Counted from the first letter of the stretch, positions 5,458-44,779 are shown. The stretch is DNA of 64,000 nucleotides from an uncultured Halieaceae bacterium (GCA_913056165.1 CAJXMD010000002.1:7676-71675), one strand, 5' to 3'. Notes: generated by a model not told the origin, from the sequence alone. Numbers and translations: made by a program.

Positions 5458-7227
5458 TCAGGAACCCCCTGCCACGCGGTCCAGCGCTTCTCGCATCATA
5501 GCAGTCGTGAGCAATTGGGGCAGGATAAAGGGGTCGCCTTTTCCGACCGCTGGGTACATCACGTAGAGGGGAATGCCATTGCGGCGGTGACTCCGCACAA
5601 ATTTCCCAATGTCTTCATCGTAGTCGGTCCAGTCAGCGACCATGTAAATCACGCCGCTGGCTTGAAACTCTGCGGTCATCTCTTTAGTGAAGAGAACGGC
5701 CTGTTCATTGGCGATGCAGGTAATGCACCAGTCCGCGGTGACATCGACAAACACTGGCGTGCCGGCATTTCTTAACTCGGCCAATGCTGCGGGTGACCAG
5801 GCCACCGTGCCCTCGCGCAAATCAGTGTCGGCGTTTGTATCTTGACCGCGAATGGTGGCCAATCCAAGGGCCAGCGCGATACTCGTAATGGCAAAGGTTT
5901 TTCGAAGCGCCGATCCGCGGTAAAGCCACAGGCCCAGGGCCAGCAGGACCAATCCTGCGAGCGCTGCGGCCATGGTATCCACACCACTCTGCTTACCCGC
6001 GACCCACAGCAACCACACCGCGGTGGCGTAGAGGGGAAAGGCCAGCACCTCTTTGAGGGTTTCCATCCAGGGACCCGGTTTCGGCAGGGCTTCACGGGCA
6101 AGATGGCTGTAGCTCAGCAACACCATGGGCGCTGCCATCCCCACACCGAGGGCCACAAACACCAGAAGCGCAATGGTCGTGGGTTGAGTCAGTGCAAAGC
6201 CCAGAGCGCTCCCCATAAACGGTGCGGTACAGGGACTTGCTACCACCACTGCCAGCACCCCAGTAAAAAAGCTGCTGCGGGCACCCTGTCCGCTGGTAAG
6301 GGCATTGCCCACATTCATCAACCCCGAGCCCAGCTGCACCACCCCCGATAGCCCCAGTCCCATGGCAGTGAAGAGATAGGCGAGGGCGATGACAAAGCCC
6401 GTGGACTGCAGTTGAAATCCCCATCCGATCAGTTGCCCCATGGATTGGAGGCTGATCAGCGCGACGGCAATACCCACAAAACTCGCGACCACCCCCGTCA
6501 GGTACCACCAGGCATGACGGTGCTGGGAGGCTGAGTCACCGGTGGCAAAGCTCAGGACCTTTAATGACAGGATTGGGAAAACGCAGGGCATCGCGTTCAA
6601 GATGACGCCACCGAGAAAAGCGAAGACAAGGGCGCTCAGCAGGGTGATGCTATTAACGGGGTCCCCTAGTGGTTGTGAGTCCTCATCGACTGTAGGGGAC
6701 GCCGGGTTTGCGTCAATCTCGGGTTCGCCAGGATTTATTGGTCCGGTCGCGCCATCGACACTAAAGACTTCGGTGTGGGGTGGGTAGCACAGACCCGCAT
6801 CGGCACATCCCTGGGATGTGACCGCAAGTCGGGTCAAGCCGAAAGGTCGATCCGCAGATACGCGCAGATCGGCGTAATCGTAGTAGACCTCCACGTCCCC
6901 AAAAAACTCATCAGTTTTTGCCAGTGCGGGGGAGTAGCTCAGCTCAGTCCCTATTTCCCCCTGAGCATCAGCCATGGTGACTTTGAAGCGGTGTTGATAT
7001 AGATAGTAACCGGGCTCTATCTGCCAGTAGAGGCGGAGGGTGGTGGCGTCGACTTGTTCGATCTCAAGATGATAGGCCTGCTCGACAGGCAGAAATTCAT
7101 TGGATTCCTGCACCAGTGCGCTGAGCCCCTGCCCCAGCGCAGTGAACGACCCGAACAGTCCCGCAACCGCGAGAAGCAGTGCCAAAGTGGAGCGGCGTAG
7201 TGCCGCGACGGGGGAACTGTAGACCAT
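5458..7227 (-). CDS. dsbD: Thiol:disulfide interchange protein DsbD family
   Basis: N-terminal domain QGCADAGLCYPP, TM domain MPCVFP/ASPCTAP, thioredoxin ADWCITC. Confidence 0.9.
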   Translation of the reverse strand: MVYSSPVAALRRSTLALLLAVAGLFGSFTALGQGLSALVQESNEFLPVEQAYHLEIEQVDATTLRLYWQIEPGYYLYQHRFKVTMADAQGEIGTELSYSPALAKTDEFFGDVEVYYDYADLRVSADRPFGLTRLAVTSQGCADAGLCYPPHTEVFSVDGATGPINPGEPEIDANPASPTVDEDSQPLGDPVNSITLLSALVFAFLGGVILNAMPCVFPILSLKVLSFATGDSASQHRHAWWYLTGVVASFVGIAVALISLQSMGQLIGWGFQLQSTGFVIALAYLFTAMGLGLSGVVQLGSGLMNVGNALTSGQGARSSFFTGVLAVVVASPCTAPFMGSALGFALTQPTTIALLVFVALGVGMAAPMVLLSYSHLAREALPKPGPWMETLKEVLAFPLYATAVWLLWVAGKQSGVDTMAAALAGLVLLALGLWLYRGSALRKTFAITSIALALGLATIRGQDTNADTDLREGTVAWSPAALAELRNAGTPVFVDVTADWCITCIANEQAVLFTKEMTAEFQASGVIYMVADWTDYDEDIGKFVRSHRRNGIPLYVMYPAVGKGDPFILPQLLTTAMMREALDRVAGGS

Positions 7228-29687: not shown

Positions 29688-31115
29688 TTATTGAATGGTT
29701 TTAATCCAGTCGCCGATACGGGGCTCGCCGCTGGGATAGTAGCCATTGATCAGCCGGAGCTGGTCCTCGGCGTCGGGGATGCGCGCGCTCGAAGAAAGGC
29801 TGTTTAGAGTCGCTCCGCGGGGCACTTGTACATAGTGCAGGTTGCGGCTCTCGCCTTTAACTTTTTCCCGTGCGGCGAGTGGTCTGAAGCTCTCAATGAT
29901 GGTCAGCAGGTTGGCATCCCCCGATGCGATGTCGGGGGTTTCTCCAGTAAAGAGAAAACGATAGCGATGATCGATAACCGCCAGACGTTTACTGACCCCA
30001 TTGCCCGACGCAATGGCCGTGCTTCCCTTCAAACCAAATTGGTCGAGCTCAGCCTGATTGGTGAGCTCACCAGTCGCTTGTGTTGTTAAAAAATCATTGG
30101 GCGCTACGGCAGGATCGACTTTGGACAGGGACAGGGTGACCTTTTCACTTCCATCAGCAGAAGTTGCGACGATCGAGCGGGACCCTTGCTGCACCGTCCA
30201 ACCCTCGGGATAGCTAAAGGAAAAGTCGAGCTTGTTGTGATAGAAACGATTGGGTTCCGCTTGGGCTTGAGCACTGGCCCCAAAAACCAGGCCCTCTACC
30301 TGAGAGCGGAAGGCACCGGGTAATTCGGGGTCCTCGGGCTGATTGTCCAGATCAAGATTGTTGGCGGTTTTCACCACGGTTTGAAGTCGAAGGTCATTGC
30401 GGGGGTGGCTGGCATAGAGACCGTGATAGGTGCCCACCGGCTTACCCGATGATTTTGCCTGAACACGTCGAAACATCTCCTGGTCTTTCAGCACGCCAAT
30501 GACCGAGAGCAGGGCGTCCGCATCGTAGCCGCTTCTATGCATAAACTCGGCACCGGCGGCATCCGCCTCCAGCTCCATATCGCGCCCAAAGCCGCTGATG
30601 ACTTCGGCGCCGACCATGCGGGCAGCATCATAGACGTCGCCGCTCCCTGTCAAAATGTAGGCTGTTGTCGCGAGTATGGTGGAGGTGGTCGACTGAGTTT
30701 TGCGTCTGCTGTGATGCCGCTCGGTGATGTGACCAATTTCATGAGCAATGACGCCCGCCAGCTCGGCCTCGGTTTCCAGGTAGGCCAGCAACCCACGGTT
30801 GATGTAGATGTAGCCGCCAGGCAGGGCGAAGGCGTTGATATCGGGAGAGTCCAGTACGGTAAAACTAAAATGCGCATCGGGCATCGACGAATTGGCTACC
30901 AGTCGCTGGCCGATGTCGTTGATGTAGGCGGCGAGCTCGGGATCGTCATAGACACCAATGGCCTCGATCATTTCCCGATACTCTTCGGGGGTGTCCTCGG
31001 GAAGATCAACCTGTCTGCCACCGACGGTGACTGTGGGCGAGGCAGCGTTCGCCGCCAGCGAGCCAGTTAACAGCAGGCTTGCAATGAGACGACAGGCATG
31101 AAGTCGAGAAAACAT
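29688..31115 (-). CDS. M48-family metalloprotease with C-terminal LysM-like segment
   Basis: Signal peptide, NAFALPGG, HEIGH, ELEAD, SHP; start moved to ATG 31115. Confidence 0.9.
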   Translation of the reverse strand: MFSRLHACRLIASLLLTGSLAANAASPTVTVGGRQVDLPEDTPEEYREMIEAIGVYDDPELAAYINDIGQRLVANSSMPDAHFSFTVLDSPDINAFALPGGYIYINRGLLAYLETEAELAGVIAHEIGHITERHHSRRKTQSTTSTILATTAYILTGSGDVYDAARMVGAEVISGFGRDMELEADAAGAEFMHRSGYDADALLSVIGVLKDQEMFRRVQAKSSGKPVGTYHGLYASHPRNDLRLQTVVKTANNLDLDNQPEDPELPGAFRSQVEGLVFGASAQAQAEPNRFYHNKLDFSFSYPEGWTVQQGSRSIVATSADGSEKVTLSLSKVDPAVAPNDFLTTQATGELTNQAELDQFGLKGSTAIASGNGVSKRLAVIDHRYRFLFTGETPDIASGDANLLTIIESFRPLAAREKVKGESRNLHYVQVPRGATLNSLSSSARIPDAEDQLRLINGYYPSGEPRIGDWIKTIQ

Positions 31116-31131
31116 GGCGAGGGGAGCGTGC

Positions 31132-31839
31132 TTACCGAGTGGCCGAGAGATAATCGAGCAACTGATCCCCGAGGCTGTCACAGGCGGTACCTTGCACGGG
31201 TGCAATGATCGGGATGGGTACTACGACTGCGGGCATATAACTCTGGCCGCTGGTGTTGGCGCTGATTCGGCCGACCTCGGTTTGATCGGTAAAATCCCAG
31301 ATAGTTGCCTCGTAGTCGGACGCGTTGCCCCAGGTGCCAAAACCGAAGCAGCCAGCGCCACCGGGGCCGACGCCGCAGGTCATTGAGCCCGAGCTATTGG
31401 TTTCGATGGTCGAGCCATCTATCCAGATCATGTACTCCAATTTGATATCAGTGAACTGATTGGCCACCGGTTCCTGCATCAGCAGTCGATCGATGTCCTG
31501 AGGTCGCAGGGGCGCGGTACGTGGCTCAAACCAGGGGTACATCATGTTGATGAACTCAAGTTCGTGTAACACGGTGATGGAGTTGTCACCTCGACGAATG
31601 TGATCGCCTATGCATTCAATAAAATCGAACTCGGTTTCGTAATCGGGTGCATGGCGTCGGCCCAGTATGACGACCGAGGAATCTCCAATTCCCTCGGTGG
31701 GTTCAAGAAAGGTCATCTCATCGACAGTCGCGGTGACACAGCCTTGAAGAAACAGGAATAAAAGAACCAGCGCGGACCCGTAGCCTAGGGATCGCCTATT
31801 CCCTGTGGGGTGGCGGGATGTCGTGAGAGTGCGATTCAC
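31132..31839 (-). CDS. Hypothetical lipoprotein
   Basis: Lipobox LQGC; GTGA overlap with the upstream gene. Confidence 0.8.
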   Translation of the reverse strand: MNRTLTTSRHPTGNRRSLGYGSALVLLFLFLQGCVTATVDEMTFLEPTEGIGDSSVVILGRRHAPDYETEFDFIECIGDHIRRGDNSITVLHELEFINMMYPWFEPRTAPLRPQDIDRLLMQEPVANQFTDIKLEYMIWIDGSTIETNSSGSMTCGVGPGGAGCFGFGTWGNASDYEATIWDFTDQTEVGRISANTSGQSYMPAVVVPIPIIAPVQGTACDSLGDQLLDYLSATR

Positions 31840-32585
31840 GAAGAAGCTCCCTCGGGTTCATCAGGGGTACCGCTACTGTCACCATTTAATGCTGCTGCGG
31901 GAACCTCCGTGATAGCGTTGCGTGTTTCCAGCCACTCGATCACCGCTGGGACCCGGTGAAAGGAAGTCGCGAAATTGGCGCCCGCATCTCGCAGTGCTAC
32001 CACCGCAGCCAGGTTTACCGCCTCTTCATCCGACTGCAGGAATGCAGTGGGTGTTTTGCCGTAAGCGCTCAGTGTCCAGTCGGCGATGCTCTGATTCGGG
32101 TCGTAGGTCAGTTCGCCGTCGCTGTGCTCGTGAATGGCGTCAGTGGTGACCAGACGAAATCGGTACTTCATCCAGATTTCATACACCTTGACGTTGGTGT
32201 GTAGCGGAATGGTGTACTGCAGGTCTTCGACGTAGGGAATAATCACGGCGTCGATGTCCTGCTCGACAGCGTGCAGGGCGTCATGGCTATCGATATGGAC
32301 GATGTTCGTGAACATGCCGCCTAACAGCGTGTCCCAGAATTCAACTTGGGCATCGCCAGTTTTCACCAGCCAGTCGGTTTCCTCGCGCCCGGCCGCTTCA
32401 TCGTAAATCTCGTGGTTGGCGAAGCTCTCGGTATAGACCACGCCGAGGGTAAGCGGCGTTTGCTCCATGAGAGGTTTCGGAAAATTACCCTGAACCACCA
32501 CCTGCTTTGCCCCGCAGGCAGCCAAAAAAAGAGCAACGGCTGCAGCAGCAGTGAGTCGGATGGTGCGATTAGGGCCTGAAATCAT
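31836..32585 (-). CDS. Hypothetical lipoprotein
   Basis: Lipobox LAAC; probable start ATG 32585 overlapping the upstream stop. Confidence 0.8.
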   Translation of the reverse strand: MISGPNRTIRLTAAAAVALFLAACGAKQVVVQGNFPKPLMEQTPLTLGVVYTESFANHEIYDEAAGREETDWLVKTGDAQVEFWDTLLGGMFTNIVHIDSHDALHAVEQDIDAVIIPYVEDLQYTIPLHTNVKVYEIWMKYRFRLVTTDAIHEHSDGELTYDPNQSIADWTLSAYGKTPTAFLQSDEEAVNLAAVVALRDAGANFATSFHRVPAVIEWLETRNAITEVPAAALNGDSSGTPDEPEGASS

Positions 32586-33567
32586 TGAGTCCAACGAAGG
32601 TGCCACCATTTCGATAGGTCAGTTCTCGCATCAGTGTAGCAAAACGAACCCCGGTAGTTTGTAGTTGGGGGGGGCGAATAAACTGGACAGGAAACCCGAC
32701 AGCGTGGATTCGCACCCGTCTTTCACCGTCAAAATTGTCGGCATTGAGCTGATCTACTGTCTGAACCACGCTGCGAATGGAGTCGCCGGTGAATTCATCA
32801 CCAAACACGTAAATAGATATTTTTTTGTTGGGGTCATAGAAGGTACGCACCGCTGCAGTAATACCCTCGACCGGGGAGCTATTGGAAAAGACGTTCCAGT
32901 TGGCGAGATTTCGCAAAATGAGACTGCGCCGGGCAGGGGTATCGGGTATCCACTGACTCCGATAGCGGGAAAACAGATAGTTCCCCATATCGTTTAATAC
33001 CTGAATTCCTTTGACTTCCGGGTAAATGTTGAGCGTGGCCTCCATCTCTTTAAGCATGCGCTCCCAGGCGTAAGAAAACATCGAGCCGGAGGTGTCGATA
33101 ATGAAAATGATGTACTCGCTGTCGACTGGAATCCCCCCAATCAATTGATTTTTCTTTTCACTGTTAATGCCCAGCAGTCGTTTTTCTTCTTCGCTTAACT
33201 GCTGTCGGGCGATGGCGAGTTGTTGCTGAACAATGCTGTTGGTGTTGCGCGTAGTCTCAAGGGCGTCAAAGCGTGACTGAGCTTTTGCCAGCGCTCCTTG
33301 GAGGATGGCTATGCGCTCTTTGTACTGTGATATTTGTTCCTGCTTGGCATCTAACTCACGATTTAAAATTGTGGTTTCTCCCCGAATCTCGAACAGTTGC
33401 TCGGTGAGTTCAGCGACTTTGCCGTCGGCCACGATCGTGGATTTCTCCAGAATCTGTGGTTGCACGGTTTTTGTGATCATTAAAAGCAGAATGACCGCGC
33501 CGAAACCACAGCAGATAACGTCCAGAAAGGAGATCGAAAATTCAGGAGTGCCCCGTCGCTGCCTCAT
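32569..33567 (-). CDS. Single-pass TM + coiled-coil + VWA domain protein (paralog 2)
   Basis: SFLDVICCGFGAVILLLMI TM segment, heptad-rich stalk, IFIIDTSGSM MIDAS; ATGA overlap. Confidence 0.85.
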   Translation of the reverse strand: MRQRRGTPEFSISFLDVICCGFGAVILLLMITKTVQPQILEKSTIVADGKVAELTEQLFEIRGETTILNRELDAKQEQISQYKERIAILQGALAKAQSRFDALETTRNTNSIVQQQLAIARQQLSEEEKRLLGINSEKKNQLIGGIPVDSEYIIFIIDTSGSMFSYAWERMLKEMEATLNIYPEVKGIQVLNDMGNYLFSRYRSQWIPDTPARRSLILRNLANWNVFSNSSPVEGITAAVRTFYDPNKKISIYVFGDEFTGDSIRSVVQTVDQLNADNFDGERRVRIHAVGFPVQFIRPPQLQTTGVRFATLMRELTYRNGGTFVGLNDFRP

Positions 33568-34655
33568 GGCCAATCCCTCGAGGGCGACATAAATGAGCCG
33601 CCCGTTACTTGCGCCAACTGCCAGTATTCAGATGCCGCCATCGGATCACCTTCCATGGGGGCGAGGATAATATTAACCGGCACACCCGCCGGCAGCCGCC
33701 GAACCGCCGACCTGAATAGCTCGAGTCGGTCCCGTCCCGAGATCGTTGTTTTTCGTGGCGGGGCATCTCCCTGTGTGGGTAAACCATCGGTGATCAGAAA
33801 AATATTGTCCGGCCCTCCCGGTAGCGCCGCCACCGCATCAAAGGCCTTATGCAGGCTGGTTCCACCGGAGGGTAGCTGTTGGCGCAGGGCATCGGTCGCG
33901 CTTTTCAATAACTCCCCATCTGCGACGTCGAGCCAGCGGTTTTTCTTGTCTTCGAGAACTGAGTTGGCTTCGGTATTAAAGGCAATGATTTGAAACTGCG
34001 CATTGATGGGTAGCTGCGCAGTGAGCCAGTCGACCGTATTCAGCGTGCGAACCCACTTGGGGGCGGTTTGCTGAAGCTCGGCGTCCATGTTTCTAAGCCG
34101 GATGACATTGACAATACTGTCAGCAAGCATGCTCGCGGAGGCATCTACGAGAATAACGATGCGGCTACCTCCGAGGTTTAAGCCCGTCAGATACTGACGG
34201 TTGCCCACCCCCACGTACTCACGAGCACTTCGACCCGCCTGCGCTTCGGCGGCTTCCTTAAGTTTTTCCACTCGCTCCTCGAGTCGGTTAATTTCAGCTT
34301 TCAGAGCCTCCACATCCTGATCTTCACTCAGGCCGCTTTCTTCAAGGGACGCAATAAGCGCTTCGTAATTGTCGAGCTCTTCGGTCACCCGGGTTGCTAA
34401 CCCCTGAGCTTCAACGATATCCAGATCAGCACTGGTGAGCGCGTTGCGAAGACGGACGAGACCGGCCTCGCCCTCCCGGATGTCCTCTTCCAGCAGGTCG
34501 ATTTCCGCAAACACCTCGGCGTTGACGGTTCGACTCTCAATTTCCATCGAGTGATCGATGATAAGGAACACCAAGACCACCGCCCCGAAACCACAGGACA
34601 TAATGTCCAGAAAACTGAGGTTGAAGGTCGATGTCTGCCGCTTACGTCGAGTCAA
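33564..34655 (-). CDS. Single-pass TM + coiled-coil + VWA domain protein (paralog 1)
   Basis: SFLDIMSCGFGAVVLVFLII TM segment, coiled coil, LVDASASM...GGT...ITDGLP MIDAS; TTG start with GAGGAG RBS. Confidence 0.87.
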   Translation of the reverse strand: MTRRKRQTSTFNLSFLDIMSCGFGAVVLVFLIIDHSMEIESRTVNAEVFAEIDLLEEDIREGEAGLVRLRNALTSADLDIVEAQGLATRVTEELDNYEALIASLEESGLSEDQDVEALKAEINRLEERVEKLKEAAEAQAGRSAREYVGVGNRQYLTGLNLGGSRIVILVDASASMLADSIVNVIRLRNMDAELQQTAPKWVRTLNTVDWLTAQLPINAQFQIIAFNTEANSVLEDKKNRWLDVADGELLKSATDALRQQLPSGGTSLHKAFDAVAALPGGPDNIFLITDGLPTQGDAPPRKTTISGRDRLELFRSAVRRLPAGVPVNIILAPMEGDPMAASEYWQLAQVTGGSFMSPSRDWP

Positions 34656-34658
34656 CCA

Positions 34659-35918
34659 TTACTCCTCGACGGCGATGAGCTGCGCGTTGAATCCCATGGC
34701 ATCGGTGATGACATCACCGACAGTGAAAACATGGCCAGCCTCAGCTGCCCTGCCGTTGATGTTGAGGTCCTGAGGGATGGGTGCGGCAAGTATGATCGAT
34801 GTGCCCTGCTGCTCGAGTTGAATCTCCTGTGGCGAGAGTGCGCCCGGTGTAAAGGCTTTGGCGATGCCGCCGCTCACCCAGTGGGTGGGTCGGGGGAGCG
34901 GGTTTGACTCGTGAGATTCTGTGGCGGGAGCAGGACTCTCGGTCTGGGGTGCCACCCGGGAGTTGGTGGATTCTGCGGGTACCCGACGCTGAAGCACCAG
35001 CGCATCCGGCGCTTGCCGCAGACTGTCGGCAAATTTTAGTGTGGTGGTGACGATAGCGCCGTTGTCGATGCCTGCCGCAGAGCTATCCATGACCAATCCG
35101 GGCAGCTGATCGAGGGGCGATTCCAGCAGTATCGGTGAGTCTGCATCCAGCAGCGGTTGAAGCGCGTTCGCGTAGGCGGCGCCAACGCAAGCCAGATCCT
35201 CCTGAGTTACCCGGACGTCATAGCCATTGATCGACATGTGCGCCTCACCTTGGGCTTTCAGGGTGGCGAGGAAGACCGGGAGTTGGTCGTACAGGGTCTG
35301 CTCTCCGTCCGCGGATCGAAGCGGATCAAAACGGGTTTGATCCACAAAAGCGCCAGCAATACTGTTGGCCAAGCGATCCTGCAGAGCGAGCAGTCCCTCA
35401 CCCGGCAATGCCTGAGAGTTTGTTGCGGCCACGTGACCATCGGAGACCTGAAACTGGGTGACCAAGGTCTGGTGTAGCTGAAGTTCAACGTGCAGTCCCT
35501 GTCCCATGCCGCTGGCGCTACCGAGCAGCGCGGATCGGTGAATCAATCCGTCGATAGAAAAGGGGAGGTGTTCCACAATACCTAGCAGGAGTGACAGCTG
35601 CTCGCGCGTAAAGCTCCCGGGCACGGTGAGTAGGACACGATCGGGTCGATTGGCTTCCTCGTAAAGGGTCTGAAGATGTTCATGGGCTAGATCCGCTGTG
35701 TGTCGTGCCTTGCCGAGAGGGGGCGCCAGTGGCGCGGTGCCCAGCTGCGACCAAAAGCGCGTGTTGACCTCGCGAGGGGTGCGTCGTTGGGTGCGCAAGG
35801 CCGCTATCCCGAAACGAAATTGCTTGCCATCGAACCAGGCGTATCCCGGGGATTCGATGTCCGTGTCGCCTCGCCAGATTTTTAGCGCGGTGTCGTGGAG
35901 GTCTAGAACAGCCGTCAT
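34659..35918 (-). CDS. Cytoplasmic protein resembling a degenerate Hsp70/actin-fold domain plus FHA-like C-terminus
   Basis: Colinear by-eye similarity to the DnaK NBD (LLTVPGSF vs VITVPAYF etc.); LNING...GDVI tail; ATGA overlap. Confidence 0.65.
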   Translation of the reverse strand: [419 protein letters not shown]

Positions 35919-36718
35919 GATCTCGGTACTGCAAGGTGGCGAAGGAGTTTGCGATCGATGTACCGCTGGGTGCTAAGGACGAGGCGCTCTTGGGAGAGTT
36001 GCAGCTGGTGTAAGGCAAACATGATGATGATCGATAGAACCAGCGCGACAAAGGTGCTGTTGAAGGCAACCCCCAAACTCACGGTGACCCCCGAGATATC
36101 GCCTTCCACTGCCTTATAGGCTTGTCCCAGCGCGTCACCGATACCCCGTACGGTGCCGATAAACCCGATGGAGGGGATGGCCCAAGAGATATATCGCACC
36201 ATGGAAAGTTCCGAATCCAGTCGGTCTGCTTCGATGTCGCACTGTTCTCGCACGGACTCGGATACCGCGGGGATCGACTGGGTCGTCGCAAAACGTTGGA
36301 GCGCATTCATAAGCGCTCGTGGCAGCAAAAAATCCTGCTCTTCTTCAGGGAGAGCTTCCAGAGCCCGCGCGTAGTCTCTTGAGTCTTGCGGCAGCAGGCT
36401 GGTGCCGGTGGGAACATCCATTAGATTGCGCCCCAGCATTCCCTGCTCAAGTCGGGTGCGATGGGCCTTGAGTCCCATGATCGCCAGAGCCCAAAACAGC
36501 AGGATAAAACATGCCTCCTGCTCAAAATCCCGGATGACGATGGCAAGTGTTCGCTGTGCTTCCACCGCCTCCCCGGCAGCCTGCAGGGCGGCCTGCGCGG
36601 CGAGTTGTGCTTCGGCGGTGGGGCGAATGAGTCCGATATAGACGCCGTGCACCACGATGACCGCAAGAAGCAGGGCAAAAACCTGATAGAGAAATTCGTT
36701 ATTGATACGCAAAGGCAT
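35915..36718 (-). CDS. MotA/TolQ/ExbB proton-channel family protein
   Basis: WAIPSIGFIGTVRGI and LGVAFNSTFVAL TM motifs; two additional N-terminal TM helices. Confidence 0.92.
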   Translation of the reverse strand: MPLRINNEFLYQVFALLLAVIVVHGVYIGLIRPTAEAQLAAQAALQAAGEAVEAQRTLAIVIRDFEQEACFILLFWALAIMGLKAHRTRLEQGMLGRNLMDVPTGTSLLPQDSRDYARALEALPEEEQDFLLPRALMNALQRFATTQSIPAVSESVREQCDIEADRLDSELSMVRYISWAIPSIGFIGTVRGIGDALGQAYKAVEGDISGVTVSLGVAFNSTFVALVLSIIIMFALHQLQLSQERLVLSTQRYIDRKLLRHLAVPRS

Positions 36719-36732
36719 AGTAGAGATCCTGC

Positions 36733-37041
36733 TTATATATCAACGGGGAAGGATACCGAGCTGTCCTCGGAGATCGTCTCGCTGGGAATGTAGTCCAGAG
36801 TGGGTCGTGCGGTTGGGTTCACCTCAAGGGGCGCCTCTTCTTCCCGCTCCGGAGCAGCCACTTGAGAGGACTCGGATTCGGTAGCCGGTTCTGGGAGGGT
36901 TGATTCCTGTGCCTCGAGGCCAGCAGACACCAGCCCTGCGGCCAGGGCTAAACTACCTAGCATCACTGCCACAGGCGCTTTATAGCCGGCACGGCTTTCC
37001 TTGTCCTGTGACGCTATCTTTCTGGTGAGCTTATTCTGCAT
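36733..37041 (-). CDS. Small exported acidic protein
   Basis: Hydrophobic signal segment, low-complexity linker, C-terminal YIPSETISEDSSVSFPVDI; overlaps the upstream stop. Confidence 0.75.
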   Translation of the reverse strand: MQNKLTRKIASQDKESRAGYKAPVAVMLGSLALAAGLVSAGLEAQESTLPEPATESESSQVAAPEREEEAPLEVNPTARPTLDYIPSETISEDSSVSFPVDI

Positions 37042-39154
37042 AGCGCGCTATCCTGAAACCCAAGTCGTCCCTGCCCGCGGCTCCATAATCACGGTAGGTG
37101 AGCCGAAGTTCCGCCAGTCGACTCAGCGCCCAGCTTGCGCCTCTGACGGTGTAGTTGTCTCCGTTCACACTGCCCAGCGGGTCGGTGGCGAGTTCTGCAT
37201 TGGCAGATGGAATCACGTAAACATCGTGAACCCATTCCGCCACGTTACCCCCCATATCGTACAGGCCCCGGTGGTTGGGCGGAAAGCTCGCCACTGGCGC
37301 TGCCACGATATGACCGTCCGCGTACCCGTTGAGGATACGGCCGGTCACCAAGGCAGAGGTATTGTCTGCTACGTTCACCACGGGCGCACTGGGTGGGAAT
37401 TCCTCACCCCAGGCAAATTTCCGATAGCCCTCGCCCTCGATCCGAGCCGCGTAAGACCATTCGGCCTCAGTGGGTAGGCGATAGCCGGTGCTGGATGCGT
37501 TGTAACCCCGGATAATGCCTTCGCTCTCTCGATAGAAAGGCGGTAGCCCCTCCTTAGCGCTCAGCCAGTTACAGAACCGGGCTGCCTGTTGCCAGCTGAT
37601 CTGGGCCACTGGCTGATGCTCCCGATTGAGGCTATTGCCCTCAATTTGCCCGCTGCTATGGCTTTCCAGAAACTGTCTGAACTGGGCGTTAGTGGTCTCT
37701 GTTGTTGCCAAGTAAAAAGCGCGTTCGAGTTTTACCGTGTGCAGCACTTCATTGGAGCGCCGTCCCGGCTCTCGCCGCGATGCCCCCATGGAGAACTCAT
37801 TCATGGGTTCGGCGATCGGATCGATGAGCACCAGCGTTTGTCCCAACGGCGACACAATCTCGGGTTTGATCGCTGCCTTGCGGGCTTCTGCCTCGGTAAG
37901 CAGAGCGATATCCACGACCTGCTCCAGGCCTTCGCGGGGCGTGACCTGCAACCGCTCGCTGGCATAGCCTGGTGCCCGAATTTCAACCCGCTGGGTTACC
38001 GCGGGGAGGGCGAGTGTCTGATCTCCACGACCCATCACCGTGCCATTCACCAGAAGCTCAGCGCTCGACGGCTGAACACGAAAAGTGACGTCACCCAGCC
38101 GGGGAGTCAGGGTGACGTCCCGGGTTGCGGTATCACCGCGTGCCAGTTCGAGGGTTAACCGGGCACGCTGATAGCCGGATTTTGTGAGTTGTATGCTGTG
38201 AGTCTCATCGGGTGTGAGTTCAATCTCCAGCGGTGTTCGTCCCTCGAAGGTGCCATCCACCGCCACCGCGGCGCCCGTCGGTGTAGACGTGAGTGAAAGC
38301 ACACCGGCAGAGGGTTTCAGTTGGACGGGCCCGATCTCCTGCGGCACACCCGCCACTACAGTGAGTTCAACTGGGGCATCCACATACCCGTTGGCGCGAA
38401 TAACCAGCTCGCGCTCGCCGCTCATGACTTCAATTGGCGTGCCGGCATTTCCTATCGGTTCTCCATCCAGCCATACGCTGGCGTCTTCTGGTGTCGAGGT
38501 AATCAGTATGTCAGCCCAGTCGGGTTCGAGGTCGACGCTAAGTGTCTGCTCGATCCCCCGGCCGGTAACATCGATGGTGGTGTCTCGCTCGATATAGCGG
38601 GGCAGCGAAAACCTCAATGTCCCGGACCCGGCGGGCAGCGAGAGACGCTGCAACGGTGTGACGCCGATAGCAACCTCGTCTAAAAAAACCTCGGCTCCAG
38701 CCGGCGCGGATTCGATCGTGACCCATCCCGGTTTGATGGCGGGACTGATATCCAGGCGCTGGCTCTCTGCGTCGCCAACGGTGATCGTGTCCTCGAAATC
38801 TTCGTAGCCGGCCACCTTTACTACCAGTTCGTACTCGCCGCTTCGAAGTAGGTATCTGGGACCGATAGGGATCGCGATGCCTGACAGGCTTATGTCAGCT
38901 GTTCCAATAGCATCCACGACGATGTCCAGTGAGCGGGCGGTGAGTAGAAAAAACAGCGCGTAGATAACGATGGCGCCGCCTACACCACCGACCAATAGAG
39001 GCCATCGTCGAACTCCCTCTGATGGACCGGTGGTGCTGAGAGGTTCAAAGGCCGTCGGACTGAGCGGCCCGTCTGACTGGCCGGGCTGCTGTGATGCGGG
39101 CATTGGGCTAAAACCATCCGCCTTCAGGGGCTTGTCGTCCTCGTTCATGGGCAT
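37031..39154 (-). CDS. TM-anchored multi-PEGA + FGE-sulfatase (SUMF1-like) domain protein
   Basis: Repeated (I/L)xSxPxGAxVx(L/V)D PEGA units; FSMG, YRLPTEAEW, GLYDMGGNVAEW, GFR motifs. Confidence 0.9.
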   Translation of the reverse strand: MPMNEDDKPLKADGFSPMPASQQPGQSDGPLSPTAFEPLSTTGPSEGVRRWPLLVGGVGGAIVIYALFFLLTARSLDIVVDAIGTADISLSGIAIPIGPRYLLRSGEYELVVKVAGYEDFEDTITVGDAESQRLDISPAIKPGWVTIESAPAGAEVFLDEVAIGVTPLQRLSLPAGSGTLRFSLPRYIERDTTIDVTGRGIEQTLSVDLEPDWADILITSTPEDASVWLDGEPIGNAGTPIEVMSGERELVIRANGYVDAPVELTVVAGVPQEIGPVQLKPSAGVLSLTSTPTGAAVAVDGTFEGRTPLEIELTPDETHSIQLTKSGYQRARLTLELARGDTATRDVTLTPRLGDVTFRVQPSSAELLVNGTVMGRGDQTLALPAVTQRVEIRAPGYASERLQVTPREGLEQVVDIALLTEAEARKAAIKPEIVSPLGQTLVLIDPIAEPMNEFSMGASRREPGRRSNEVLHTVKLERAFYLATTETTNAQFRQFLESHSSGQIEGNSLNREHQPVAQISWQQAARFCNWLSAKEGLPPFYRESEGIIRGYNASSTGYRLPTEAEWSYAARIEGEGYRKFAWGEEFPPSAPVVNVADNTSALVTGRILNGYADGHIVAAPVASFPPNHRGLYDMGGNVAEWVHDVYVIPSANAELATDPLGSVNGDNYTVRGASWALSRLAELRLTYRDYGAAGRDDLGFRIARYAE

Positions 39155-40677
39155 CAGATACTCTCCGTGCAGCGGACGTCGACCGCGCCTTTTTGTCCCG
39201 GTTTCACGCTGAAGGAAACCCGAACATCACGGAAGCCTGTCCGCACCCCCATGGCGACGTAGTCACCCGGTCGGAGCGTTAAATTCTGTTCGCTGAATGC
39301 GCCAAGCCGGCGAACCCGCAGGAGAGTCACATCGGTCTGACCATCGGATGTCACGTTTACCTCCACGGGGGTGCGGGCATAGTTGAGTGCCGCCGAAATC
39401 GCCTGAATTTGCCCCGAGAGAACAGGGCCCGGTGCGCTAATGGCTTGCGCCTGTTGCAGGGTGGCTTCCGCCTCGGCCAGTACCCGTCGGTCTACTAACC
39501 GCTCTTGTTCATCGAGAATGGTTTGCAGCGCTGTTGCCAAGGCAGCCCGGGGCTTCACCCGGTCAAGTCCCTGTTGGGCGAATACCAGCGTAGGATCGGT
39601 GGCCAGTGCTTCCTCGTAAGTATCGAGAGCCCCTTGCCAGTCTTCCGCACGCTCTTTTTGTTCCCCTGTCTGAGCCAGTGCTCGCAAGGTGGCATCTGTC
39701 TTGGCCTCAGATAACTCGGTTTCGGCGGCTTGCACCTCGGCTGATGTGGGACGCAGCTGCCGAGCCTTCTGGAAGGCCGCCGCCGCCCCTTCAAAGTTTT
39801 CCTGATCAAGCAGGTCATAGCCCCTTGTCATCGCCTGGCGAAATCGTTGGTCTGCATCCTGCTGTTGGAAGGTCGCGAGCATGTCACCTGCTCGTTGATG
39901 ATCCGGATCGGCACTGACCGCCCGTTTGGTTGCATCAATGGCAGCTGAGAGATCATTTTGATCGGCTGCTTCAATCGCCGCGTCCAGTGCTTTAGACACC
40001 TCGGGTATAACAGCCACTCTTGCGCGTAGCGTGTCCCGATCCAGATCATTTGGTGAGAGCAACACCAGCAAATCCAAATTTGCTGTGGCGTCGAGTTGGT
40101 TGCCCTCTTCAATGGCGTTCAGGGTGGCCGCTCGCGCGTCAGCGATTCGTGCTGGCACGCTGTCTTCAAGGGTGACCAGTGCATCTCCCGCATTTAAATA
40201 AGCGGTTGCTGCCTCGGTAAAATCCCCGTTCCGGTAGGCCTCATCCCCCGACATCGCCGTTGCTATAGTGGCCTGATAGGCATTGGGTGCCCAGCGCTCC
40301 ACCCCAAGATCTTGCAGTATCTCCTGAAGTTCAAGCACCCGCTGCAAGGCATCCTGCGCGGCTTTGCGCGCCTGTTGCCGTTGTGCCTCGGCAAAGGGAC
40401 TGCGCTCCACCGGCGCTTGCGCTGACGCCGCTGACCCGACGCTCCCCGATGCACTCGAATCGGTGGCGGGGGACATTGACGACTGTGTCTCAGGCGTTGA
40501 TGGGTCACCCACCAACAGAGGGAGCAGTACGAAAACACAGACTGCGACAACGCCCAGCGTGAGAATACCGGGCACCAACCACGGGGGTCGTTGCCCGGCG
40601 TCCGTCGACTCATTAACGGTGTCGGTTTGTGGGGAGAAGGCGGTCGGGTTGAGGGGTTTGTCGGTGCTATCGCTCAC
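39154..40677 (-). CDS. TM-anchored TPR-like helical protein with C-terminal PEGA-like domain
   Basis: N-terminal TM helix, Ala-rich TPR-like repeats, SDGQTDV...LRPGDY...GFRDVR tail. Confidence 0.78.
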   Translation of the reverse strand: MSDSTDKPLNPTAFSPQTDTVNESTDAGQRPPWLVPGILTLGVVAVCVFVLLPLLVGDPSTPETQSSMSPATDSSASGSVGSAASAQAPVERSPFAEAQRQQARKAAQDALQRVLELQEILQDLGVERWAPNAYQATIATAMSGDEAYRNGDFTEAATAYLNAGDALVTLEDSVPARIADARAATLNAIEEGNQLDATANLDLLVLLSPNDLDRDTLRARVAVIPEVSKALDAAIEAADQNDLSAAIDATKRAVSADPDHQRAGDMLATFQQQDADQRFRQAMTRGYDLLDQENFEGAAAAFQKARQLRPTSAEVQAAETELSEAKTDATLRALAQTGEQKERAEDWQGALDTYEEALATDPTLVFAQQGLDRVKPRAALATALQTILDEQERLVDRRVLAEAEATLQQAQAISAPGPVLSGQIQAISAALNYARTPVEVNVTSDGQTDVTLLRVRRLGAFSEQNLTLRPGDYVAMGVRTGFRDVRVSFSVKPGQKGAVDVRCTESI

Positions 40678-40729: not shown

Positions 40730-41998
40730 TCATTGTCCCGAATTTAACCCGTCGACGGAACTGTCAGGCTCGGTCTGCGCTGATTCAGGACTCGTTAGGC
40801 CGCCAGTACTGCTACCCCTCATATTGGGTTCTTCCCTCTGCAGCTCTCCCATCTCTGCGGCGTAGAGATCCGCCATCAACTCTCGCCACTGGCTGTACTG
40901 ATCCTCGGCGCTACCCGACAGCCGCACGGTACGATCCTCAAGTTCAATGACCCGGGGTGTAATTTCAGCTTGCAGCGACTGCCCAAGCTCTTCGATAGCC
41001 AGGGAATGGATGCTGGACTCCGCCCGTTTTTCCAAGCCGCTCTTCAGCAAATAGCCACCGCCAGCAATGCCCACTGCCCCGGCGGTTCGGGCATAGCTGC
41101 TACTCGAGCCCTGAGCGGCAATACCTGCCACGACGGCCGCGGCGCCGGCAATTAATCGCTGGTTGGCTTCTTGTTGTAGCTCCCTTTGAGCAATCACTTC
41201 GTCATAACTCAGCTTGCGCCATTCTTGGTAGGGCGTATACATCTCTTCCGAGAAACCATCGTAGTGACCCTGCAAGGTGTCCACGAAGACGTAATTTCGC
41301 TGTCGAAGATTGCGCACACGCTCAAGCATGGGGTCATCCTCAGCTGGTAAACGCCTCAATTGATATTCGCCATCCTTGTCCTCTTGAAGATAATCGGCAA
41401 AGGCATTTTCAGCGAATGCTCTTGCGAACCTGAGTTCAGCGACCTGGCGAATCGTTACGCGCTCTTTTGAAGTGGATGCGTTGAACTTGTCGAGCATGTC
41501 ATTGGCAATCAGTCGGTAAACCAGCAGGAAGGGGTCCTGATTCGTGGCAGCGCGTTGGTCATAGGCATAGCGACTGGTTGTGCCCTCGTAGGTCTTGTCA
41601 ATCCAGACTGCTCCGGTGGCGTCTGTGACTATCACAGCTAATGCCAGTCGCTCACCATCACTGTGAGCGATACGCCCGGTGACTAACAGGTCAGTGAACT
41701 GCTTGTCGTCAGGGACGACTCGAACCGCACCCCAGGCGCCGACCCCCTCCAGCACCTGGGCAAGTTCTCTCGCGATAAAGGTAGCCTCCGCTCGACGAAT
41801 TTCGGGATACACCTGATCATCATCAGTCAGGCTGTCGATGCCCGGGTCGAGAATCGCAACCCCCACGTCCAGCACTTCATTTTCTGGCACAAGTTGTTGG
41901 GGTTGCTCCAGCGCAGGCACCGAGGTGCTCTTGACGGTTTGACTGACGCAGCCAGCGAGGACGAGCGCACCGAGCAATATCGTAAGTGTGCGCATCAT
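40730..41998 (-). CDS. Hypothetical lipoprotein with glycine-zipper-like segment
   Basis: Lipobox LAGC; LIAGAAAVVAGIAA...AGAVGIAGGGYLL. Confidence 0.82.
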   Translation of the reverse strand: MMRTLTILLGALVLAGCVSQTVKSTSVPALEQPQQLVPENEVLDVGVAILDPGIDSLTDDDQVYPEIRRAEATFIARELAQVLEGVGAWGAVRVVPDDKQFTDLLVTGRIAHSDGERLALAVIVTDATGAVWIDKTYEGTTSRYAYDQRAATNQDPFLLVYRLIANDMLDKFNASTSKERVTIRQVAELRFARAFAENAFADYLQEDKDGEYQLRRLPAEDDPMLERVRNLRQRNYVFVDTLQGHYDGFSEEMYTPYQEWRKLSYDEVIAQRELQQEANQRLIAGAAAVVAGIAAQGSSSSYARTAGAVGIAGGGYLLKSGLEKRAESSIHSLAIEELGQSLQAEITPRVIELEDRTVRLSGSAEDQYSQWRELMADLYAAEMGELQREEPNMRGSSTGGLTSPESAQTEPDSSVDGLNSGQ

Positions 41999-43128
41999 GA
42001 CTGCGGGATCTCCAATCCTTTGTATTTACGGTATTCATTCCAAAGACGCTCCCGAACCTTGGGATCGGGTTCGCGCATGGCAGCCTCCCGCAGCTGACGG
42101 GCAACGACATCGTCATTGCTGCCATCGGGGATATCGTCAGGGGCCTTATAAATAGCAGGATTATCAGGCGGTGCGCCACCACCCCGTGATGCACCCCCCA
42201 TGCCGCCACCTGTAGAGCTTCCACCCCCCATGGCCACGTCGTCGTTATAGGGATTACGACCGCTGGTGCCGGCGCCGGCGGGCTCGGGTTGCTCGCGCTG
42301 GGCATTTCGGTTGGCACGCTCTCGTGCCTCTTCGCGCTGGCGCTGTTGCTCCTCGAGGATCATCGCATCGAAATCACTGGTGCTTTGTTCCAGCTGGCGA
42401 TCGAGAATGGCCACTTGCTCCGCCGTGGTCATAATGTCGCTACCGCTAGCCACCCCCTCCATGCCGCCATCCGCACGAGTGCCGGGACCGCTGGGGGATG
42501 CATTCTCAGTGCCGGCGGGGGATCCTCCACTCTCGCCATTGCCGCCGTCGGCATCCGCCACCCCGGAGGCTGAGTCGGTGCCATCACCACCGCCGTAGCT
42601 TTCTTCAAAAGTGGGTAGCTCGTCACGCATATCGGGCAGCGCATCAGCCCCCGCGATATCACCGAAACCCGGTTCGCTGCTGTCGCCCATGCTCTCTGAG
42701 CCACTCTCGCTACCAGAGTTCGCGGCTCCCGGATCTTGTGTGCTCGAGCCAGTATCCGCGGTCGGCATACCGCCCTCATCTTGAGTCGATTCCCCGGCCC
42801 CGGAACTTGCAGATGGGGAGGGGAAACCACCTCCGGTCGGCATGGATTGGCCACCGCTGGACCCGCCCGATGACGAAGCGCTTGACTGACTGCCAGATGC
42901 GCTCGAGGAACTGCTACTGGCGCTGCTGCTCGATGAGGAGGATGACGAACTTGAAGAAGGCGATGAGGATGAAGACGAAGACGAGGGCGTTGACGGCGTC
43001 GTCGGCATGCTCGGCGTCGTTGGCGTACTGGCGCTTGGACACCCTGACAACAAAATAAGCACGCCCAACAGAGCGATCATCTTGGTAATCCGGATGGTGA
43101 AGCGGCTATTCATAAAGTCTTCTTTCAT
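41995..43128 (-). CDS. Ser/Gly-rich disordered lipoprotein with short helical C-terminal module
   Basis: Lipobox LSGC, poly-Ser tracts, C-terminal DDVVARQLREAAMREPDP..RERLWNEYRKYK. Confidence 0.8.
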   Translation of the reverse strand: MKEDFMNSRFTIRITKMIALLGVLILLSGCPSASTPTTPSMPTTPSTPSSSSSSSSPSSSSSSSSSSSSASSSSSSASGSQSSASSSGGSSGGQSMPTGGGFPSPSASSGAGESTQDEGGMPTADTGSSTQDPGAANSGSESGSESMGDSSEPGFGDIAGADALPDMRDELPTFEESYGGGDGTDSASGVADADGGNGESGGSPAGTENASPSGPGTRADGGMEGVASGSDIMTTAEQVAILDRQLEQSTSDFDAMILEEQQRQREEARERANRNAQREQPEPAGAGTSGRNPYNDDVAMGGGSSTGGGMGGASRGGGAPPDNPAIYKAPDDIPDGSNDDVVARQLREAAMREPDPKVRERLWNEYRKYKGLEIPQS

Positions 43129-43135
43129 GTCCTTT

Positions 43136-44482
43136 TCAGTCCAGTAACACAGTTTCCGGATCCCAGGCCGTTGCGCTAAAGGACCAGATCAGCCCCTCGG
43201 AAGCCACTGGCTGGGAGCCGTCAAAGCCGGGCCTGAAGCGCGTGTCTTTCAGCGTGCGTACCAGTCGGCGTACGGCTTTGTCGTCCTCAAGTTCGGGACG
43301 CAGCAATTCCTCAAACTCCTTCACCCGCCCCGTTTCGGTGACGCTGAATGACACTGCAAGCGGCCCCTGATCGCTGTTCATGTAGGGGGGTAGGGGATCG
43401 AGGCTCTCAATAGCTGGCAGTGGTACTGGTTGGGCAAAAAATCGCGCCATTAGTTCCGGTTGCTCGCCTCCCTCGATCAGTCCCATCGCGGTTGCGTAGT
43501 GAATTTCCGCCTCTGAAAACTTGCCAAACCACATCGCCCAGTCCCCGAGGGCGACGGTGTCCTGCGCGTGTTGCTCCAGAGATACCTCATTGGCTGTGTC
43601 CAGCTCGAGTAGTGCATTCAACACCGCTACTCCCCGTTTGTAGGCGGTGCTGGTAAGCCCGGCAAGCTGCGCATCACTATCCTTGGATGCCTTGTAATAG
43701 GGGTAGCCACGATGCCCTGCAAAGAGGTACTGGGAGGTCAGCATGCCCATGAGCGGGCGCCGCAACTGAGGCGCCGAGTTGCCGTGGATCTCGATCATCT
43801 CGGTGAGCGCCAAGCGGTAGAGGTCCCAGGTCACCATGAGTCGCCCCATCTGGGTTTCAGGATCCCCGACCCGCATGAGGAAAGCCTGCTGTTGCCACTG
43901 AGCTTGTCGCATCAGGGCCTCTGCGGAGTCTGACCGATTGGCGAGAGAGCGTCGCTCAACGCGGTAGAGATAACGTTGCCGTTCATCGACCTGATCAAAT
44001 TGTCCCATCGCCATGTGACTTCTGATCTCGCTGCGCAGCAGCGCCAGCTGTTCCCCCGAATAAAGGCCATTATTGATGCGGGCGATATGCGCGCCGCGCT
44101 TGAGTACATCGATAGCTTCTTCATGACGATTGAGCTGTTGCAAGGCAGTGCCCAGTCCGAGCAGCTGTTCTGTCATGCCAGGAGAATAGGCACCACCCAG
44201 TCGCTCCTGCGCCTCAATCGCCGCCTGGTATTCGAGGACTAATGACGATTCGGCCACCGGCTCCGGCGAAGGCCTTGCGTCGAGGCTGTTGCGCATGTCG
44301 ATCACGACGGCATCGGCGGGATTGTCAGCGGTGGTTTCCGGGGTGGGCCTTGCGGTTGGATCGGACTCAATCGGGTCGCTGTTCTCTACCTGTGCGACCG
44401 AGCCAATGCTAAGACTGCACAACAGCGCCAGAACAAGCCCGGGGAGGAGGTGTCTAGGTCCTTTTGTTAAGTGTGCGCGCAT
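43136..44482 (-). CDS. Exported TPR-like protein with TonB C-terminal-like domain
   Basis: Signal peptide, TPR-like helices, VSFSVTETGRV...TRFRP...PV TonB_C pattern; probable start ATG 44482. Confidence 0.75.
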   Translation of the reverse strand: MRAHLTKGPRHLLPGLVLALLCSLSIGSVAQVENSDPIESDPTARPTPETTADNPADAVVIDMRNSLDARPSPEPVAESSLVLEYQAAIEAQERLGGAYSPGMTEQLLGLGTALQQLNRHEEAIDVLKRGAHIARINNGLYSGEQLALLRSEIRSHMAMGQFDQVDERQRYLYRVERRSLANRSDSAEALMRQAQWQQQAFLMRVGDPETQMGRLMVTWDLYRLALTEMIEIHGNSAPQLRRPLMGMLTSQYLFAGHRGYPYYKASKDSDAQLAGLTSTAYKRGVAVLNALLELDTANEVSLEQHAQDTVALGDWAMWFGKFSEAEIHYATAMGLIEGGEQPELMARFFAQPVPLPAIESLDPLPPYMNSDQGPLAVSFSVTETGRVKEFEELLRPELEDDKAVRRLVRTLKDTRFRPGFDGSQPVASEGLIWSFSATAWDPETVLLD

Positions 44483-44779
44483 CCAAGCACCCTCATCGCT
44501 ATCGCGGTGATCTCCCAGTATAGCCAGTAGTTGACCCATGAGACCAAGGGAGGTGCGTGGGATAACCCCCGCGCTTGCTATATGATGTCGCGTTTTGCAT
44601 CAGGGCTCTGTCGATCAACACGGACCAGGCGGGGCCAAAACACCCAAATTAGTGGCAGCAACGCGTGTTTTTGGTCGTGCAGTGGCAGCTTTTCAGGGCT
44701 CTCGCAGGGCTTTTGCAGGATGCTTGCGTGACTTACATGGGCACGCGGGAGAGCGGCCCCAATCAAAGGATGGTGGTGA

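What the first reader, a model, noticed from the sequence alone, without database searches (positions are those of the whole stretch)
32569..34655. Two VWA proteins carry an ExbD/TolR/MotB-like transmembrane aspartate and may be the missing motor B-subunits
Seen: both paralogs begin with a short basic N-tail and a near-identical TM segment, FNLSFLD(17)IMSCGFGAVVLVFLII and FSISFLD(16)VICCGFGAVILLLMI. A long coiled coil and a VWA domain follow, with MIDAS DASAS or DTSGS. Paralog 1 keeps ITDG; paralog 2 has FGDE. Established: ExbD (D25), TolR (D23) and MotB (D32) have an essential Asp at this position of their single TM helix, and no canonical B-subunit lies next to the TolQ-like gene here. Inference: a heterodimeric B-subunit in which the OmpA/ExbD periplasmic domain is replaced by a metal-dependent adhesion head on a stalk, letting the motor grip and move a protein partner. 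The shared CGFG is a distinctive signature.
Basis: partly seen in the sequence, partly recalled or inferred. Interest (0 to 1): 0.85.

Follow-up and report, generated by a model that had tools for sequence, protein, structure and literature searches.

The report
vWA-headed axle pair of proton motor
Two neighbouring genes encode membrane-anchored proteins with a conserved membrane aspartate, a long stalk and a metal-binding adhesion (vWA) head, which likely form the central axle of a proton-driven TolQ/MotA-type motor; a 2025 paper already predicted this design by computer, it remains untested, and here it sits in a larger conserved envelope gene set.

Summary
The membrane Asp is kept in 117 of 121 aligned homologues of one paralogue (the four exceptions lack the helix) and 94 of 94 of the other. 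Both MIDAS sites are intact. The nearby tolQ-like gene keeps both pore threonines in 88 of 88 orthologues, and every ExbD/TolR gene found in this genome lies beside its own exbB/tolQ.

No experiment is reported there.

That paper's text does not mention the rest of the conserved module: an S-rich tethered lipoprotein, a TolB-N/CsgG/PelC-fold lipoprotein, TPR-PEGA, a PEGA-stalked FGE-fold protein without catalytic cysteines, a small exported peptide ending FPxDI, and an optional Hsp70-fold protein.

This scan had already noted the system on other DNA (47 findings), the peptide included. Verdict: new member of a predicted, untested kind; its target is unknown.

The parts
33564..34655 (-). vWA axle paralogue A, 363 aa: basic N-tail, membrane helix with D17, about 130-aa stalk, vWA with canonical MIDAS (D171, S173, S175, T266, D290)
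32569..33567 (-). vWA axle paralogue B, 332 aa from ATG: membrane helix with D16, about 120-aa stalk, vWA with MIDAS D158/S160/S162, Ser at the usual Thr place, D257
34605..34607 (-). codon of the membrane Asp17 of paralogue A
33520..33522 (-). codon of the membrane Asp16 of paralogue B
35915..36718 (-). TolQ/ExbB/MotA-like channel subunit, 267 aa. P182, T189 and T222 align with TolQ P138, T145 and T178. V217 and I231 stand at TolQ E173 and P187. Extra N-terminal membrane helix with His24 (86 of 88)
34659..35918 (-). 419-aa protein without a membrane segment: Hsp70/actin-like nucleotide-binding fold (model residues 1-310) with a changed second phosphate motif, plus a small C-terminal beta domain (an FHA domain in some orthologues). 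Optional: 11 of 20 distant regions
36733..37041 (-). small predicted exported protein, 102 aa: hydrophobic N-terminal segment, acidic/Pro linker, conserved C-terminal tail ending FPxDI; reduced to about 40-60 aa in distant loci
37031..39154 (-). membrane-anchored protein, 5 PEGA domains plus an FGE-fold domain with no Cys among the common residues of the region that holds the catalytic pair; best solved relatives are PorK/GldK
39154..40677 (-). membrane-anchored TPR/helical protein with a C-terminal PEGA-like end (the PEGA label is from reading the sequence)
40730..41998 (-). predicted lipoprotein, 422 aa: TolB-N/CsgG/PelC/FlgT-type domain (residues about 40-175) and a long helical hairpin with a Gly/Ala-rich tip
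41995..43128 (-). predicted lipoprotein with a long low-complexity tether and a conserved acidic C-terminal helical module
43136..44539 (-). accessory: secreted TPR protein with a weak TonB_C-like C-terminus (E 0.049, under the cut-off); 5 of 20 distant regions
31836..32609 (-). accessory lipoprotein, 257 aa (Atlas neighbours with LptE/Lipoprotein_16-type families, lead only); 5 of 20 distant regions
31132..31839 (-). accessory lipoprotein, 235 aa, with five invariant Cys; 5 of 20 distant regions
29688..31205 (-). accessory M48 (BepA-like) metallopeptidase; common in close relatives, 2 of 20 distant regions

Best explanation
The two genes encode paralogous single-pass membrane proteins with a conserved membrane aspartate, a 120-130-residue stalk and a MIDAS-bearing vWA head, and they likely form the two-chain axle of a proton-driven 5:2 motor whose five-chain ring would be the TolQ-like protein at 35915-36718. 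Shown here: the residues, their conservation and the co-inheritance. Inferred from MotAB/ExbBD/TolQR (established knowledge): protons would pass the two Asp residues at the T189/T222 ring and turn axle against ring. Inferred from length: the stalks (about 15-20 nm if helical) would carry the heads towards the outer membrane. Most speculative step: the heads would bind, through a divalent metal, an acidic partner in the co-inherited scaffold (the FPxDI peptide, possibly held by the FGE-fold domain, or the acidic module of the tethered lipoprotein). They would thereby put force on an outer-membrane lipoprotein assembly, to move a protein or polymer across it or to remodel it. Confidence about 0.85 for 'axle of this motor'; about 0.4 for 'force on the outer-membrane assembly'.
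For: Asp in 117 of 121 covering representatives at under 50% mutual identity, the four others lacking the helix; Asp in 94 of 94 B orthologues; T189 and T222 in 88 of 88 channel orthologues, aligned to TolQ T145 and T178 (weak E 0.29; Pfam MotA_ExbB E 4.9e-14). The tolQ-like gene is in 18 of 20 distant regions, and the two regions without it have a close orthologue elsewhere in the genome (E 8e-92 and 6e-77). All 3 ExbD/TolR matches of this genome lie beside their own exbB/tolQ genes. No His in the vWA helices, so no SHLS side-binding motif. MIDAS residues are conserved in both heads. Scaffold genes in distant regions: PEGA-FGE 19, TPR-PEGA 19 and lipoprotein-422 18 of 20; peptide gene in 86 of 86 loci that hold the FGE gene, one ending PxNI. 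PMC12204202 section 8 (read whole) reports AF3 models of this protein class with the Asp pair inside the Thr ring.
Against: Sequence likeness of the helix to ExbD/TolR is not significant: this genome's TolR ranks 41st among 9050 frames, E 92; profile-profile probability 3.7% over 8 columns. The channel lacks the TolQ E173 and P187 equivalents, which could mean a different gating or no rotation. The paper states that no deletion phenotype is reported for its vWA transducers, and my searches found no experimental study. Lipoprotein-422 was not found in 3 of 5 genomes tested, one of them 100% complete (G265), so the outer-membrane part may not be obligatory. A sister system pairs a single Asp-helix vWA with kinase-like, PP2C and FHA genes, which points to signalling. 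This genome is 86.7% complete, so an unseen ExbD is possible.
Confidence: 0.6

Rival explanations
1. Same 5:2 complex, but the vWA heads are anchors, as the peptidoglycan-binding domain is for MotB. The TolQ-like ring would then turn and act on the cytoplasmic side, for example on the Hsp70/actin-fold protein.
For: The Hsp70-fold gene lies between channel and axle genes here and in most close relatives; its fold is confident (pLDDT 93, Z 23.6 to Ssz1, rmsd 3.4 over 306 residues). The channel has a cytoplasmic region of about 90 residues with a conserved Arg142. Anchoring is what MotB and ZorB do (recalled).
Against: The Hsp70-fold gene is missing from 9 of 20 distant regions (those genomes were not searched for it elsewhere), whereas the periplasmic and outer-membrane genes are the ones retained.
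Confidence: 0.17
2. The complex is a gated ion channel or sensor: the heads detect a ligand (such as the exported FPxDI peptide) or envelope damage, and opening is relayed by FHA and phosphorylation proteins, loosely as in Zorya.
For: A sister locus (L187) has kinase-like, FHA, PP2C and trypsin-FHA genes around a tolQ-like gene and one Asp-helix vWA. FHA domains occur on 2 of 68 Hsp70-fold orthologues. The TM3 proline is absent. A dedicated small exported peptide is always co-inherited.
Against: No kinase or effector gene among the 13 proteins of this locus scanned. The locus keeps one gene order across Halieaceae and relatives, unlike typical patchy defence islands (inference). Both pore threonines are invariant.
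Confidence: 0.15
3. The vWA proteins are ordinary membrane-anchored adhesins or chaperone adaptors. The Asp serves another purpose, and the TolQ-like ring borrows a canonical ExbD/TolR.
For: No significant sequence match of the helix to ExbD/TolR. In 2 of 20 regions the tolQ-like gene has moved away from the pair.
Against: No orphan ExbD/TolR found. In G242 the three genes stay together when the rest of the cluster has split off. An invariant buried Asp in both paralogues is costly without a channel role (inference).
Confidence: 0.08

Closest known systems
TPH-vWA proteins beside tolQ-like genes (second vWA family in Williams-Jones et al., Mol Biol Evol 2025;42:msaf138, PMC12204202, section 8, Fig. 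4c-d)
   Same: Heterologous pair of membrane-tethered vWA genes, Asp in the helix, no SHLS motif, tolQ-like neighbour with Thr ring, no syntenic tolR/exbD/motB, Proteobacteria.
   Different: The main text has 0 occurrences of PEGA, formylglycine or Hsp70 and does not mention the peptide gene; here an Hsp70-fold gene separates channel and pair. The figure's gene maps and the model files could not be seen and may show these genes. Sequence identity to the paper's Idiomarina query was not tested.
ExbBD / TolQR / MotAB 5:2 proton motors
   Same: PF01618 channel subunit with the conserved Pro and two Thr; B chain with basic N-tail, single helix and Asp near the cytoplasmic side.
   Different: Two different B chains, long stalk and vWA head instead of an ExbD or OmpA domain; no membrane-anchored TonB/TolA gene found in the locus; TolQ E173 and P187 not kept; extra N-terminal helix with a conserved His.
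GldLM/PorLM motor with the GldKN/PorKN ring of the type IX secretion system (mechanism recalled)
   Same: Works-like analogy only: a long periplasmic dimer on a 5:2 motor next to a non-catalytic FGE-fold protein; the best solved relatives of the FGE domain are PorK/GldK (E 1e-21 against 5e-18 for true FGE).
   Different: The channel is of the MotA/TolQ family; the FGE-fold protein is predicted inner-membrane anchored on PEGA repeats and scores far under the GldK cut-off (103.5 against 350 bits); no other T9SS genes seen in the locus.
SHLS-type vWA transducers (first vWA family in PMC12204202, Fig. 4a-b)
   Same: Membrane-tethered vWA next to a tolQ-like gene.
   Different: Those have an SHLS His and separate tolR-like genes; these have an Asp, no His, and no tolR-like neighbour.

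Membership tests
TPH-vWA / tolQ-like class (PMC12204202) | membrane-tethered vWA genes in a heterologous pair | tested here: met
   A and B adjacent in 20 of 20 distant regions; about 23% identical
TPH-vWA / tolQ-like class (PMC12204202) | conserved Asp in the helix | tested here: met
   117 of 121; 94 of 94
TPH-vWA / tolQ-like class (PMC12204202) | tight co-occurrence with a tolQ homologue and no syntenic tolR/exbD/motB | tested here: met
   18 of 20 in the region, the other 2 elsewhere in the genome; no ExbD match in this locus. ExbD and MotB families were not scanned in the other loci
TPH-vWA / tolQ-like class (PMC12204202) | no SHLS motif in the helix | tested here: met
   no His among the common residues at positions 11-33
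TPH-vWA / tolQ-like class (PMC12204202) | Asp pair faces the Thr ring in a 5:1:1 model | not testable with these tools
   seven chains exceed the six-chain limit; the threonines are invariant
TPH-vWA / tolQ-like class (PMC12204202) | sequence homology to the paper's Idiomarina query | not tested
   the sequence was not seen in the supplement passages returned; model files not held
ExbD/TolR (PF02472) | ExbD periplasmic domain | tested here: not met
   no PF02472 match at this locus; vWA domain instead
ExbD/TolR (PF02472) | homologous N-terminal helix | tested here: inconclusive
   same pattern around the Asp but E 92 and probability 3.7%; the segment is short
MotB/OmpA-type B subunit | OmpA-like peptidoglycan-binding domain | tested here: not met
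   no such Pfam or NCBIfam hit at E 0.1
MotA/TolQ/ExbB (PF01618), for 35915-36718 | family match and pore Pro/Thr/Thr | tested here: met
   52.6 bits, cut-off 22.9; P182, T189, T222 in 88 of 88
5:2 ion-driven rotary motors | ion conduction and rotation | not testable with these tools
   needs experiment
T9SS GldK/PorK, for 37031-39154 | score over the family cut-off, lipoprotein | tested here: not met
   103.5 against 350 bits; N-terminal membrane segment with PEGA repeats

The most novel reading that the evidence does not exclude
The pair is the axle of a complete, undescribed eight-gene trans-envelope machine, widespread in marine Gammaproteobacteria. Two different MIDAS heads on a proton-driven shaft grip a dedicated exported peptide (FPxDI tail) presented by a catalytically dead FGE-fold domain, and so drive an outer-membrane lipoprotein ring with a helical pore. 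That would be a MotA-family counterpart of the type IX GldLM-GldKN drive, with the TonB-like His helix fused into the channel subunit.
Probability: 0.2. Interest if true: 0.8.

Novelty: new member of a known kind. Interest (0 to 1): 0.36.

Why it matters
If the reading holds, it confirms a predicted fourth way of using the MotA/TolQ ring, with force or signal passing straight along an asymmetric axle rather than through a TonB/TolA side chain. The system was found in 26 of 299 other sampled genomes of the class (one a weak hit), small marine genomes included, so it probably does something useful in common ocean bacteria. The defined core gene set, the two Asp codons, the two MIDAS sites and a 15-20-residue peptide make the untested 2025 prediction directly testable in cultured relatives such as Congregibacter, Pseudohaliea or Kineobactrum (named). 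The core idea itself is not new.

Tried and rejected

Apparent vWA-B fusions of 450-675 aa were ORF-calling artefacts from an overlapping frame, so there is no fusion evidence.

A profile of the vWA N-termini did not pick out ExbD/TolR/MotB significantly. The cleaved-signal and lipoprotein readings were rejected. PDB sequence search with the channel alignment found nothing at E 0.001 and TolQ only at E 0.29; with vWA-A it gave only coiled-coil noise and weak vWA hits. Pfam gave no consistent family for the two lipoprotein alignments.

Promoter and terminator scans were not informative: 4 promoter-like sites against 6.7 expected; 25 terminator-like against 14.6 (sd 4.5), none interpreted.

Contigs of two metatranscriptome runs cover 30 and 25 of 30 bins, but no silent control was laid, so this does not show transcription.

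Literature searches with no hit; one search returned only PMC12204202. Most subscription papers are outside the library.

The TonB-like reading of the channel's first helix is only partly met: His24 is conserved but position -4 is Val/Ile, not Ser.

Full report
Observation. Both genes are on the minus strand as stated. Each has a basic N-tail (median 3 Lys/Arg, 0 acidic residues before the Asp), one hydrophobic segment, a stalk of median 128 or 119 residues and a vWA domain. The Asp codons are at 34605-34607 and 33520-33522. The segments share 13 of 23 residues and the paralogues about 23% identity, so 'near-identical' is too strong.

Conservation. A phmmer search of 50%-identity representatives found 1397 proteins at E 0.001 or better. 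Of the best 150, 121 cover the helix and 117 have the Asp; the four others are fusions or fragments without the helix. These rows were not selected on the Asp. For paralogue B the Asp is in 94 of 94. The 80 loci were found with a pattern that includes the Asp of A, so I did not use them to count A's Asp. MIDAS residues are kept in A (D171 136, S173 142 and S175 134 of about 145; T266 119 of 138; D290 134 of 137) and in B (all 94 of 94, with Ser in the Thr place). A cleaved signal is unlikely: A-x-A follows the helix in 12 of 117 rows and a strict lipobox precedes the Cys in 3 of 117.

The channel gene. 35915-36718 matches PF01618. A weak alignment to E. coli TolQ (E 0.29) places P182, T189 and T222 on P138, T145 and T178; all are in 88 of 88 orthologues. 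TolQ E173 and P187 are not kept. An extra first helix carries His24 in 86 of 88. This genome (86.7% complete) has 3 ExbD/TolR matches, all beside their own exbB/tolQ genes, and none at this locus. Against simple homology, the vWA helix profile ranks this genome's TolR 41st among 9050 frames (E 92), and profile-profile comparison with 24 ExbD/TolR N-termini (of 30 loci fetched) gives 3.7% over 8 columns.

Distribution and gene set. 27 of 300 scored genomes of the class matched, counting this one, one weak hit and one unpublished genome, G037. 20 of 401 genomes of the phylum matched, 8 of them weak stalk-only hits. I took 20 regions from 19 of the 25 other strong genomes, leaving out G025, G037, G153, G201, G209 and G276. 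In those 20 regions: both vWA genes 20, PEGA-FGE 19, TPR-PEGA 19, lipoprotein-422 18, channel 18, S-rich lipoprotein 15 by whole profile (17 by its C-terminal module at E under 1e-4, two more by position), Hsp70-fold 11, TPR-467 and the two small lipoproteins 5 each, M48 2. The two regions without the channel have it elsewhere in the genome. The region with only channel and pair has the other genes further along the same contig. Lipoprotein-422 was not found in 3 of 5 genomes tested, two fragmented and one complete. These genomes are related, so the counts are not independent. Close relatives are Luminiphilus and other Halieaceae.

What the neighbours are. 34659-35918 folds confidently (pLDDT 93) as an Hsp70/actin-like domain (Foldseek E 1e-14; Z 23.6, rmsd 3.4, 306 aligned). 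Its second phosphate motif reads ExQLHQ rather than the Gly-rich Hsp70 motif (Hsp70 motif recalled), so it may be inactive. Lipoprotein-422 has an N-terminal domain like FlgT, PelC, PqiC-type, TolB-N and CsgG (Z 10.6 to 8.9; PelC rmsd 2.3 over 108), several of which form outer-membrane rings (recalled), then a long hairpin with a Gly/Ala-rich tip. The FGE-fold domain is closest to PorK/GldK among solved structures and shows no Cys among the common residues at positions 668-689. The 102-aa ORF at 36733-37041 is a conserved gene. A profile of its tail scored over 15 bits in 76 of 86 loci holding the FGE gene, 8 more had a like-ending frame at the same place, one was found by pattern, and one ends PxNI. 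By chance 5 of 47,723 frames of this genome end in the loose motif, one being this gene. Where the cluster is split, the peptide gene stays with PEGA-FGE rather than with the channel (G175, G265, G242), a weak hint that these two are partners.

Mechanism. Shown: anatomy, conservation, co-inheritance. Inferred from established 5:2 motors: the two helices sit in the pentamer and protons at the Asp pair turn one part against the other (about 0.85). Inferred from stalk length and intact MIDAS sites: the heads bind acidic partners near the outer membrane and put force on the lipoprotein assembly (about 0.4). [quoted passage not shown]

What is known. PMC12204202: I saw the abstract and outline, section 8 whole with the Fig. 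4 legend, term passages and supplement passages. I did not see the figures or the SI 3 model files, which may show the neighbouring genes. It describes this class and proposes direct rotation in the pentamer. The four other papers were seen as listings only. Searches found nothing on the wider gene set; they do not cover most subscription journals. This scan's own notes hold 47 findings on the same system in at least 45 genomes, and some on the peptide; I consulted the latter after finding the peptide.

Verdict. Real feature, sound interpretation, already predicted in print and untested. New member of a known (predicted) kind. Interest 0.36, carried by the undescribed partners rather than by the Asp helix.

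Noticed in passing
window 36733-37041 (-): Small exported-protein gene with a conserved FPxDI C-terminus, present in all 86 loci that hold the FGE-fold gene (one PxNI variant); it stays with PEGA-FGE when the cluster splits.
   Followed up: partly
window 36630-36700 (-), first helix of the tolQ-like gene: His24 in 86 of 88 orthologues, in an extra N-terminal membrane helix; resembles the TonB/TolA motor-binding His but lacks Ser at -4.
   Followed up: partly
L187:2897-14833 (G278:C1): Sister system: three kinase-like genes (by sequence reading), tolQ-like, FHA, PP2C, two trypsin-FHA genes and a single Asp-helix vWA gene, in a genome that also has the paired system.
   Followed up: partly
window 43136-44539 (-): Secreted TPR protein with a TonB_C-like C-terminus (weak, E 0.049) and no TonB-type anchor; a paralogue lies on contig C43.
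   Followed up: partly
G000 contig C3, about 5970-6956: A second lipoprotein-422 paralogue (28% identity, E 7e-42) away from the operon.
   Followed up: no
G175:C72:17888-18664 and G265:C39:153313-154086: The tolQ-like orthologue has moved away from the vWA pair; no other cluster gene was detected within about 7 kb of it.
   Followed up: partly
L130 (G162:C2) and L120 (G162:C1): One genome carries two divergent copies of the system; the C2 copy has the peptide ending PxNI, as does L192.
   Followed up: no
L033, L101, L107: Records labelled Enterobacteriaceae or Klebsiella carry loci that look like those of Pseudohongiellaceae; the labels of these metagenome bins may be wrong.
   Followed up: no
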